Shown here: positions 25,442 through 26,497 of the stretch, piece by piece
How the letters are laid out: each line of letters opens with the position of its first letter
Position numbering within the stretch: position 1 is the first letter of the stretch
Source: Escherichia coli
Lineage (GTDB): Bacteria > Pseudomonadota > Gammaproteobacteria > Enterobacterales > Enterobacteriaceae
Strand: one strand, 5' to 3'
DNA length: 64,000 nucleotides
Assembly (NCBI RefSeq): GCF_017348835.2
Contig: NZ_CP071375.1
Notes under the pieces: model-generated
What the model was told of the DNA's origin: nothing
The model's input: only the letters and a program-made list of their open reading frames with translations
Database searches by the model: none
Position numbers and translations under genes: made by a program

Positions 25442-26497
25442 TTAAGCAATTTTGACAGTAACAAATTTGCGAATATCTGCCGGAACCGGCTGCGGTGCGC
25501 TGTGCGTCTGCACGTACTCAATCGCCGGATCTCCGTCCTCAATCCAGTTTTTCGGGTAGTACATGTTTTGCGTTGCCCCCGTTCTTACTGCGTCCTGATC
25601 CATAATCGCACCATAGGCCACCAGCCCTTTATTGTTGGTGTTGCCCAGGACAAGCAAATCAGGCTCAAGGAAATATTTTTCTGTGCCGTCGCTGTCAGTG
25701 TATTTGCCGGAATAGACGATAAGGGCCAGATCACCAAGATAGCCTTTAAAGCTCACCACTTCGCCCAGGTTTTTACATGCCAGCTCTGCGGCGGATTCTG
25801 AACCACGGGAGAGATCGTACAGTTCACGGAATTTTTTAAAGCTGCGTAACATGCGCCATACATCAACGCCCATAATCATGACGTTGGCGGGGCAACCTGC
25901 CTGATCTGCGTATAGTTCAATGTCATATATTGGGTCGTGTATGTCTTTATCCTGCTCAGACCATTTTTTACCGTCGGCCTGCTCTATGATGTTTTTTTCC
26001 GGTATCTTCCAGTCGATTTCATAGCGTTCTATGCCTTCGCCCTCAATGATGTTTTTTCCGGTCGTTACCGCATTCACCGCCAGCCATTCAACGTGTGCCT
26101 TAATGGCGTTTATCTGGCGGCGCATGTTGCCAGTAATCAGGCGCATACGGCGGTAGGTAGGATCGTTAAGCTGTGCCGGATCTTCTCCAGCCATGCGCAT
26201 TATTGTTTTTAATGGATCGATTTCGTGTTTTGGCTTCATGTAGCCAGGGCGGATAATGCTGGTTTCGTACCCTTTATCGCGCTGAACCTGGCTGCCAACC
26301 ATAGGCGAACAAAACGCCGACATAGTGACTTCTTCAATATCCAGGTTATCTAACATGATGTCCTGCGTGTTGAATGTCGCCACGTTCGGGAAAAACAGCG
26401 CGGTAAACAGCGGACTAAATTTAAATTCCGCAATATCCTCGCGATTCAGGTACGCGAAAAGCTGGTGTGTGTTAAGTGCTATTGCTTTGACTGCCAT
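25442..26497 (-). CDS. Major capsid protein, lambda gpE family
   Basis: 351-aa product aligns by eye along its length with lambda gpE (FKFSPLF, PGYMKPKHE, DPTYRRMR, YPKNWIEDGDPA...SAP). Confidence 0.8.
   Translation of the reverse strand: MAVKAIALNTHQLFAYLNREDIAEFKFSPLFTALFFPNVATFNTQDIMLDNLDIEEVTMSAFCSPMVGSQVQRDKGYETSIIRPGYMKPKHEIDPLKTIMRMAGEDPAQLNDPTYRRMRLITGNMRRQINAIKAHVEWLAVNAVTTGKNIIEGEGIERYEIDWKIPEKNIIEQADGKKWSEQDKDIHDPIYDIELYADQAGCPANVMIMGVDVWRMLRSFKKFRELYDLSRGSESAAELACKNLGEVVSFKGYLGDLALIVYSGKYTDSDGTEKYFLEPDLLVLGNTNNKGLVAYGAIMDQDAVRTGATQNMYYPKNWIEDGDPAIEYVQTHSAPQPVPADIRKFVTVKIA

What the first reader, a model, noticed from the sequence alone, without database searches (positions are those of the whole stretch)
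25442..26497. Satellite-encoded lambda gpE-family capsid protein without the rest of a head module
An E-family major capsid protein on an 11.5-kb element that encodes no portal or protease suggests the element supplies its own shell protein while taking the remaining head, packaging and tail functions from a lambdoid helper. An 11.5-kb genome fits a reduced-size capsid, so the protein may specify small capsids that exclude helper DNA.
Basis: inference. Interest (0 to 1): 0.7.

Follow-up and report, generated by a model that had tools for sequence, protein, structure and literature searches.

The report
Satellite island's own lambda-type capsid gene
This is an intact lambda-gpE-type capsid shell gene on an 11.5-kb phage-parasitic island (PICI) in E. 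coli; the feature is already described in the EcCICFT073 island family and has a solved crystal structure, and deleting it there had no detectable effect, so the small-capsid idea has no experimental support so far.

Summary
Window 25442-26497 (-) encodes an intact 351-aa Phage_cap_E protein inside an 11,492-bp island inserted in tqsA, and the island has no portal, protease or large terminase. It is not new. The protein is 94% identical to c1499 of the characterised PICI EcCICFT073 (crystal structure 3BQW), and at least 618 of 5426 complete E. coli genomes carry a near-full-length copy.

It is not recombination debris. It is only 44-48% identical to any phage gpE, and dN/dS is about 0.1.

It is not alone. 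It sits in a conserved operon, 68-aa gene, E, decoration protein D, 137-aa protein, followed by a lambda-type cos site and a Nu1-type small terminase. I show that the 137-aa protein is a stand-alone copy of the C-terminal scaffold domain of lambda gpC/Nu3. In this copy D is broken by a 64-bp tandem duplication and terS carries a homopolymer frameshift.

Published work on EcCICFT073 found that deleting c1499, c1500 or the whole c1498-c1501 block does not stop transfer. Packaged DNA was phage-sized. The island length is 1/4 of a lambda headful (4 x 11.49 = 46 kb). The small-capsid reading is therefore unsupported, though not excluded: the tested islands carried markers at c1501 or c1499, and the helpers were non-cognate.

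The parts
22594..34085 (.). The PICI itself: an 11,492-bp island inserted in tqsA. The 9-bp att core TGCTGTTAT lies at 22585-22593 and 34077-34085.
   Evidence: Comparison with uninterrupted K-12 tqsA and the junction sequences. RefSeq gene table.
32672..33901 (-). Tyrosine integrase.
   Evidence: PHROG 1, E 1e-71. PGAP annotation.
32109..32297 (-). AlpA-type HTH regulator/excisionase.
   Evidence: PHROG 2790, E 2e-17.
28448..29854 (-). RepA-family helicase (replication module).
   Evidence: PHROG 2850 and 906. PGAP annotation.
27589..27999 (-). Single-stranded DNA-binding protein.
   Evidence: PHROG 44.
27306..27578 (-). PerC-family regulator.
   Evidence: PGAP annotation. PHROG 994 and 10396.
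26497..26703 (-). 68-aa gene (c1498 position), first gene of the capsid operon. Its stop codon overlaps the start of the capsid gene. A terminator-like hairpin (26918-26935) and a promoter-like site (26787-26816) lie upstream.
   Evidence: PHROG 3255, function unknown. No similarity to lambda gpW.
25442..26497 (-). Major capsid protein of the lambda gpE family (c1499 ortholog), 351 aa, intact.
   Evidence: Pfam PF03864. PDB 3BQW at 94% identity and 7VI9 at E 1e-82. dN/dS 0.09-0.15.
25031..25430 (-). gpD-type head decoration gene (c1500 ortholog). Here it is a pseudogene, broken by two extra copies (64 bp) of a 32-bp unit; the perfect tandem array lies at 25253-25363.
   Evidence: PHROG 49. Alignment to intact orthologs. 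Tandem Repeats Finder. 36% identity to lambda gpD.
24605..25018 (-). 137-aa protein (c1501 ortholog): a stand-alone homolog of the C-terminal scaffold domain of lambda-type gpC/Nu3.
   Evidence: PHROG 1999, E 4e-65. The same family matches lambda Nu3 residues 117-200 (E 3e-26) and CFT073 prophage gpC residues 365-501 (E 1.5e-68). BLASTP gives 39% identity, E 3e-11. Alignment.
24530..24543 (-). cos1: exact lambda cosN 14-mer, co-oriented with and upstream of terS. The flanks resemble the lambda left end.
   Evidence: Same arrangement as in EcCICFT073.
23857..24398 (-). Nu1-family small terminase with a 1-bp deletion in an A8 run at about 24378. This may be an assembly error.
   Evidence: Pfam PF07471 on the intact Nissle ortholog. 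35% identity to lambda Nu1. Indel mapped. A G-run error in ynfM in the same window.
23666..23679 (+). cos2: a second exact cosN 14-mer, inverted relative to cos1, downstream of terS.
23320..23601 (-). 93-aa conserved gene at the end of the module, function unknown.
   Evidence: PHROG 1561. Present in all compared PICIs and in the cf-PICI at the same site.

Best explanation
The gene is the 'capsid morphogenesis' gene (c1499 ortholog) of a classical cos-type E. coli PICI of the EcCICFT073 family. This is the TerS-carrying variant, integrated in tqsA.

Shown here:
- It is a full-length lambda-gpE-family shell protein.
- It belongs to a satellite-specific lineage kept under purifying selection.
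- It is co-transcribed or translationally coupled in a conserved block: 68-aa gene, E, D, Nu3-like scaffold domain. That block is followed by a lambda-type cos site and a Nu1-type TerS.

Inferred mechanism:
- After a lambdoid helper induces the island, the island's TerS brings the helper's gpA-type large terminase to the island's cosN.
- The DNA is packaged into heads that need the helper's portal, protease, connectors and tails.
- The island's E, D and mini-scaffold are accessory. They enter or modify these heads, as an alternative or chimeric shell, but they are not required for transfer.
- With lambda or phi80 the island travels as roughly 4-mers (46 kb) in full-size heads.

In this particular copy D is inactivated and terS may be frameshifted, so the module is partly decayed.
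For: Identity and context:
- 94% identical to c1499 / PDB 3BQW.
- The same gene order occurs in CFT073, Nissle, O157 and a 63%-diverged ETEC island.
- A near-full-length copy is present in 618 of 5426 genomes.

Selection and lineage:
- dN/dS is 0.09-0.15 at dS 0.1-0.28. The 351-aa length is kept at 63% identity.
- No phage MCP exceeds 48% identity.
- The PICI copies share N-arm insertions that lambda gpE and the CFT073 prophage MCP lack.

Other head parts:
- D homolog.
- p137 is a gpC/Nu3 C-terminal domain.

Lambdoid packaging:
- Two exact cosN sites. Nu1 Pfam match and 35% identity to Nu1.

Dispensability and full-size heads:
- PMC6092414 (Table 1 and text), PMC6739421, PMC10530653 and PMC6893505.
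- 4 x 11,492 bp is 94.8% of the lambda genome.

Decay in this copy:
-.

Slot equivalence:
- A cf-PICI at the same tqsA site carries a complete head module where this island carries E-D-p137-cos-TerS.
Against: No experiment has ever shown the island's E, D or p137 in particles, and no phenotype has been found for c1499 or c1500. An accessory role in head assembly is therefore inferred only from homology, conservation and position. TerS-type islands such as this one have no identified efficient helper; the IHE3034 and 18098 islands transferred poorly in PMC6092414. Strong purifying selection on a gene that is dispensable in every assay is unexplained.
Confidence: 0.6

Rival explanations
1. One reading: the island's E, with D and the truncated scaffold, builds or imposes small capsids that fit one 11.5-kb genome and exclude helper DNA. 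This would work like Ccm of SaPIbov5, like PmCI172, or like a partial cf-PICI.
For: - The island carries the set of shell parts: shell protein, cement and a shortened scaffold (137 aa against 201 aa for Nu3).
- Selection is strong.
- The N-terminal 60 residues are the least similar to phage gpE, at 27-33% identity.
- There are precedents. Ccm forms the pentons of small capsids (PMC8569155). PmCI172 has an MCP homolog and makes small heads (PMC6092414).
- All tested EcCICFT073 derivatives carried a marker at c1501 (the scaffold-like gene; 137 aa according to the supplement) or in place of c1499. Lambda's own Nu3 is not BLAST-similar to p137, so the published negatives may not be decisive.
Against: - The 94% ortholog gave only phage-sized packaged DNA with lambda, and no PICI-monomer band with the native CFT073 prophages (PMC6092414).
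- Deleting c1499 or c1500 did not change transfer or interference.
- The c1498-c1501::cas9 island still transfers (PMC10530653).
- The island size is an exact quarter of a lambda headful, as those authors note for cos islands.
- By scaling from P2/P4 and 80alpha/SaPI1, 11.5 kb would fill only about two thirds of a T=4 lambda-type head (my estimate).
Confidence: 0.2
2. The island's E, D and scaffold are interference or defence factors. They co-assemble with, and so poison, the heads of helper or non-helper lambdoid phages.
For: PICIs commonly carry redundant interference mechanisms, and a diverged MCP paralog could cap or derail assembly. The purifying selection fits any function that acts at the protein level.
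Against: When each post-ori gene was cloned, only c1503 (rppA) reduced lambda plaques, and deleting rppA restored plating almost fully (PMC6739421). Deleting c1499 or c1500 did not relieve interference (PMC6092414). Only lambda, phi80 and HK97 were tested.
Confidence: 0.08
3. The gene is a non-functional remnant: recombination debris from a prophage, or a decaying leftover of an ancestral complete head module.
For: It is dispensable in every published assay. In this copy the neighbouring D gene is broken and terS is frameshifted.
Against: - dN/dS is about 0.1.
- The ORF is intact at exactly 351 aa in all five copies compared, including one at 63% identity.
- Hundreds of genomes carry it.
- There is no close phage relative.
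- PE164 has only one blastn-detectable copy.
Confidence: 0.05

Closest known systems
EcCICFT073 c1499 (PDB 3BQW, 'putative capsid protein of prophage', E. coli CFT073)
   Same: 94% amino-acid identity and the same 351-aa length. The operon is the same (68 aa, E, D, 137 aa), there are the same two inverted cosN sites and the same terminal 93-aa gene, and the int/alpA/SSB/PerC backbone is the same type.
   Different: The window element carries a Nu1-type TerS where EcCICFT073 has RppA, and the swap lies exactly between the two cos sites. It has a RepA helicase instead of a primase. It is integrated in tqsA rather than in the roxA-phoQ interval. Its D gene is broken.
Phage lambda gpE (with gpD and gpNu3)
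   Same: Same Pfam family and a full-length alignment at 44% identity. D and a Nu3-domain homolog accompany it. The cosN sequence and Nu1-type TerS are also shared.
   Different: The N-arm carries about 10 extra residues. The gene order is E-D-scaffold instead of C/Nu3-D-E. The scaffold is only the C-terminal 137 aa and has no protease. There are no B, C, A, W, FI or FII genes.
Ccm of the cos-type satellite SaPIbov5
   Same: A capsid-protein homolog encoded by a cos-packaged satellite that lacks portal and protease genes.
   Different: Ccm is shown to form the pentons of small T=4 capsids and is 24% identical to its helper's CP, with a delta domain (PMC8569155). Here there is no evidence of size redirection, the data for the ortholog are negative, and the island also has its own D and scaffold domain. 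Sequence relatedness to Ccm was not tested.
Capsid-forming PICIs (EcCIEDL933 type)
   Same: Same int-alpA-RepA-SSB-PerC arm and the same tqsA site in other strains. The capsid genes occupy the same slot.
   Different: cf-PICIs carry an HK97-type MCP, protease, portal, connectors, HNH and TerS+TerL, and they build their own small heads. This island has only E, D, a scaffold domain and TerS.
SaPI1 CpmB (an alternative internal scaffold)
   Same: p137, like CpmB, is a short satellite protein that retains the C-terminal region of the helper-type scaffold. For CpmB this region is the capsid-binding end (established knowledge: Dearborn et al. 2017, eLife).
   Different: There is no functional evidence for p137. 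CpmB acts on the helper's capsid protein, whereas this island also brings its own capsid protein.
PmCI172 (Pasteurella PICI)
   Same: A Gram-negative PICI with an MCP homolog.
   Different: PmCI172 has a Mu-like helper, and small heads were seen by EM (PMC6092414). Its sequence was not compared here.

Membership tests
Lambda gpE family of HK97-fold major capsid proteins (Pfam Phage_cap_E, PF03864) | Full-length match to the family profile. | tested here: met
   Residues 27-349 match model positions 15-328 of 329, i-E 9.8e-49. PHROG 29, E 1e-106.
Lambda gpE family of HK97-fold major capsid proteins (Pfam Phage_cap_E, PF03864) | Significant similarity to experimentally solved gpE capsid structures. 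| tested here: met
   7VI9/7SJ5 (lambda MCP) at E 1e-82 and 1e-80. 3BQW at 94% identity.
Lambda gpE family of HK97-fold major capsid proteins (Pfam Phage_cap_E, PF03864) | Assembles into an icosahedral shell. | not testable with these tools
   Needs expression and EM. No published evidence for c1499.
Classical Gram-negative PICI (EcCICFT073 type) | Integrase at one end, an AlpA regulator and a replication module, with the genes in one orientation. | tested here: met
Classical Gram-negative PICI (EcCICFT073 type) | Size about 10-15 kb, a specific att site with a duplicated core, and no tail, lysis, portal or TerL genes. | tested here: met
   11,492 bp. Core TGCTGTTAT is duplicated. Gene content.
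Classical Gram-negative PICI (EcCICFT073 type) | A packaging device that redirects the helper terminase (TerS or Rpp plus a helper-type cos or pac site). | tested here: met
   Nu1-family TerS and two exact lambda cosN sites. The terS reading frame in this copy is interrupted.
Classical Gram-negative PICI (EcCICFT073 type) | Induction, replication and high-frequency transfer by a helper phage. | not testable with these tools
   No helper head genes lie in the window. The neighbouring Qin-like prophage is cryptic.
Capsid-forming PICI (cf-PICI) | Own portal, prohead protease, head-tail connectors, HNH and TerL. | tested here: not met
   None are present. Contrast L012, which has all of them.
Ccm-type capsid-size redirection | Satellite-sized capsids or DNA that depend on the satellite's MCP homolog. 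| not testable with these tools
   For the 94% ortholog the published result is negative with lambda and with the CFT073 prophages (PMC6092414). The caveat about marker position applies.
Lambda gpC/Nu3 scaffold C-terminal domain (applies to p137) | Profile-level homology to the C-terminal repeats and tail of gpC/Nu3. | tested here: met
   PHROG 1999 is matched by p137 (4e-65), lambda Nu3 residues 117-200 (3e-26) and CFT073 gpC residues 365-501 (1.5e-68). BLASTP E 3e-11. The FExFMxxHSP tail is conserved.

The most novel reading that the evidence does not exclude
The 68-aa gene, E, D and mini-Nu3 block is a portal-less 'shell kit'. With the island's natural lambdoid helpers it would build island-specific shells, possibly smaller or chimeric, on the helper's portal. 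That would make it an intermediate between classical PICIs and capsid-forming PICIs. It would have been missed because every tested EcCICFT073 derivative carried its marker at c1501 (shown here to be the scaffold-domain gene) or in place of c1499, and because lambda and phi80 are not cognate for the scaffold domain.
Probability: 0.2. Interest if true: 0.65.

Novelty: already known. Interest (0 to 1): 0.3.

Why it matters
Several hundred of the 5426 complete E. coli genomes searched (at least 618) carry this satellite-specific capsid gene, including O157:H7, CFT073 and Nissle. It is under clear purifying selection, yet no function has been found for it. If it does build or remodel heads, it would be a third route to satellite capsids, between stealing everything and making everything. 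It would also matter for engineering PICI delivery vehicles, where this block is currently replaced by cargo. As it stands, the finding re-discovers a described feature. The useful additions here are three: c1501 is identified as a Nu3-type scaffold domain, the published negative results are shown to come from islands marked inside this operon, and this particular copy is shown to be partly degraded.

Tried and rejected
- Recombination debris from a resident prophage. Rejected: 44-48% identity to any phage MCP, and only one blastn-detectable copy in PE164.
- A helper prophage in or next to the window. There are no head genes in the window, and the adjacent prophage is Qin-like and cryptic (nohA plus a truncated TerL).
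- The 68-aa upstream protein as a gpW homolog (same length). There is no similarity to lambda W or to the CFT073 prophage W.
- p137 or TerS as Rpp-like. No PDB sequence match to RppC or to anything else.
- NCBIfam gave nothing for any module protein. Pfam gave nothing for p137.
- The word-indexed homolog search for p137 returned only close E. coli copies, some of them named 'head-tail connector protein'. The exhaustive search added only three distant relatives, two of them Nu3/gpC-like.
- BLASTP of p137 against lambda Nu3 itself was negative. The link needed the profile.
- Later literature was searched for a function of the PICI capsid gene. None was found.
- Structure prediction was not run, because a crystal structure of the 94% ortholog exists.

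Full report
**Observation**

The window is 100% identical to the chromosome of E. coli PE164. Between a duplicated 9-bp core (TGCTGTTAT at 22585-22593 and 34077-34085), an 11,492-bp element interrupts the AI-2 exporter gene tqsA. All of its major genes lie on the minus strand:
- integrase
- AlpA-type regulator
- Icd-like gene
- RepA helicase
- SSB
- PerC
- a late block containing the ORF in question

ORF 25442-26497 (-) is intact and encodes 351 aa. It matches Pfam Phage_cap_E over essentially the whole model (i-E 9.8e-49) and PHROG 29 (1e-106). It matches the solved lambda capsid protein at E 1.3e-82 and is 43.7% identical to lambda gpE. No portal, protease domain, large terminase, tail or lysis gene is present.

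**What it is**

The best PDB match is 3BQW, 'putative capsid protein of prophage', at 94% identity over all 351 residues. That sequence is the CFT073 gene at L004:25669-26724, which is c1499 of the characterised PICI EcCICFT073. The supplement of PMC6092414 lists c1499 as capsid (351 aa), c1500 as head decoration (111 aa) and c1501 as an unannotated 137-aa protein.

The same block occurs in four other islands: 68-aa gene, capsid E, decoration D, 137-aa gene, cos, TerS or Rpp, inverted cos, 93-aa gene. These are the islands of CFT073, Nissle, O157:H7 and a divergent ETEC island whose E is only 63% identical. They sit at different att sites and carry different replication genes.

A near-full-length copy of the capsid gene is present in 618 of 5426 complete E. 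coli genomes. SatelliteFinder treats 'capsid morphogenesis' as one of the five core components of PICIs, and 97% of the all-component type is found in E. coli (10.1101/2022.09.14.508007). This is a described feature of a described family.

**Not debris**

- No record among 50,697 phage genomes encodes a protein more than 48% identical.
- The two phage gpE proteins compared, lambda and the CFT073 prophage copy, are 62% identical to each other. The island copies are 43-46% identical to them and at least 63% identical to one another, and they share N-terminal insertions.
- Pairwise dN/dS among island copies is 0.09-0.15 at dS 0.1-0.28.
- PE164 holds only one blastn-detectable copy.

The gene is a maintained, satellite-specific lineage.

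**Not alone**

- The capsid gene's start overlaps the stop of the 68-aa gene.
- It is followed by a gpD homolog (PHROG 49; 36% identical to lambda D).
- Next comes the 137-aa protein. Its family, PHROG 1999, is also matched by lambda Nu3 residues 117-200 (E 2.7e-26) and by residues 365-501 of a CFT073 lambdoid prophage gpC (E 1.5e-68). BLASTP to that gpC gives 39% identity, E 3e-11.
- The alignment shows two of the scaffold repeats plus the conserved FExFMxxHSP tail, which is kept even in the divergent ETEC copy.
- The only phage record with a tblastn hit to p137 is also the one with the best capsid identity.

I conclude that c1501/p137 is a stand-alone copy of the C-terminal scaffold domain of gpC/Nu3. 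I did not find this annotation in the PICI papers I read. Some NCBI records call the protein a 'head-tail connector'.

Downstream lie an exact lambda cosN with lambda-like flanks (24530-24543), a Nu1-family small terminase (Pfam PF07471; 35% identical to Nu1) and a second, inverted cosN (23666-23679). EcCICFT073 has the same two cos sites flanking rppA instead. The TerS/Rpp exchange lies exactly between them.

**State of this copy**

The D gene is disrupted by two extra copies of a 32-bp unit, forming a perfect 3.5-copy array at 25253-25363. terS has lost one A from an A8 run. A G-run deletion in the core gene ynfM in the same window suggests homopolymer errors in the assembly. The terS lesion may therefore be artefactual, but the 64-bp duplication probably is not.

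**How it works**

Experiments on the 94% ortholog constrain the mechanism:
- Deleting c1499 or c1500 changed neither transfer by the resident prophages nor interference with lambda. Packaged DNA from lambda + EcCICFT073 lysates was all phage-sized. The authors state they found no phenotype for c1499 (PMC6092414).
- When the post-ori genes were cloned one by one, only c1503 (rppA) inhibited lambda (PMC6739421).
- An island with c1498-c1501 replaced by cas9 was still delivered by phi80. Those authors note that cos islands must be exact fractions of the helper genome (PMC10530653).
- Dokland's review says the same (PMC6893505).
- Here 4 x 11,492 bp = 45,968 bp, which is 94.8% of lambda.

The best-supported picture has two parts. 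Packaging is lambda-type: island TerS, helper gpA, portal, protease, connectors and tails. The island's E, D and mini-scaffold are accessory head components, not required ones. Their participation in head assembly is an inference from homology, conservation and position. The same slot holds a complete head module in a cf-PICI at the same tqsA site.

**Why the small-capsid reading is not dead**

Every EcCICFT073 derivative used in the transfer and packaging tests was 'c1501::tetA' or 'c1499::cat' (Table 1 of PMC6092414). The marker was therefore at or in the scaffold-domain gene, or it replaced the capsid gene. I could not view Fig. S3 to see whether c1501 is disrupted.

Lambda's own Nu3 is too diverged from p137 for BLAST to detect. 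TerS-type islands like this one have no known efficient helper. Precedents exist in Ccm (PMC8569155) and PmCI172. I give this reading about 0.2.

**Verdict**

The feature is already known, and its function remains an open question. Interest is modest. The new pieces are the identification of the scaffold domain, the marker caveat and the partial decay of this copy.

Noticed in passing
window 25253-25363: A perfect 32-bp x 3.5 tandem array inside the gpD-type decoration gene. Intact orthologs have 1.5 copies, so the extra 64 bp shift the frame. The array shows 100% matches.
   Followed up: yes
window ~24378 (terS) and ~19175 (ynfM): Single-base deletions in homopolymer runs (A8 to A7, G5 to G4) cause 'frameshifted' annotations. 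They may be long-read assembly errors rather than real pseudogenes.
   Followed up: partly
window 23666-23679 (+) and 24530-24543 (-); L004 27559-27572 and 28296-28309: Two exact lambda cosN 14-mers in inverted orientation bracket the TerS gene. In EcCICFT073 the same pair brackets rppA. Sequence identity between the islands collapses only between the two sites, so TerS and Rpp look like exchangeable cassettes bounded by cos.
   Followed up: partly
window 22668-22690 and 33927-33949: A 23-bp direct repeat, TGACTACACCAGTGACTACACCG, lies just inside both ends of the island. It contains a 12-bp tandem unit. These may be arm-type integrase binding sites.
   Followed up: no
L012 (E. coli 14EC001, NZ_CP024127.1), same tqsA site: A capsid-forming PICI with the same int-alpA-RepA-SSB-PerC arm and the same terminal 93-aa gene. 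It carries an HK97-type MCP, protease, portal, connectors, HNH, P27-type TerS and TerL in the slot where the window has E-D-p137-cos-TerS. An IS1 is inserted in its head module.
   Followed up: partly
window 24605-25018 (-): Several NCBI records name this 137-aa protein 'phage head-tail connector protein'. Profile evidence points instead to the gpC/Nu3 scaffold C-terminal domain. Pfam and NCBIfam have no model for it.
   Followed up: yes
window 1-1254 and upstream (L011): The window starts in the integrase of a Qin-like cryptic prophage. That prophage retains nohA (a Nu1 homolog) and a truncated lambda-type large terminase but no head genes. It is riddled with IS elements and pseudogenes.
   Followed up: partly
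window 22457-22593 and 34086-34983: The AI-2 exporter gene tqsA is split by the island and annotated as two pseudogene fragments. This strain probably lacks TqsA function.
   Followed up: no
window 26737-26950: An intergenic region of about 200 bp lies upstream of the capsid operon. It has a terminator-like hairpin after the 74-aa gene, a weak sigma-70-like site and further inverted repeats. It may be the control region of the late operon.
   Followed up: no
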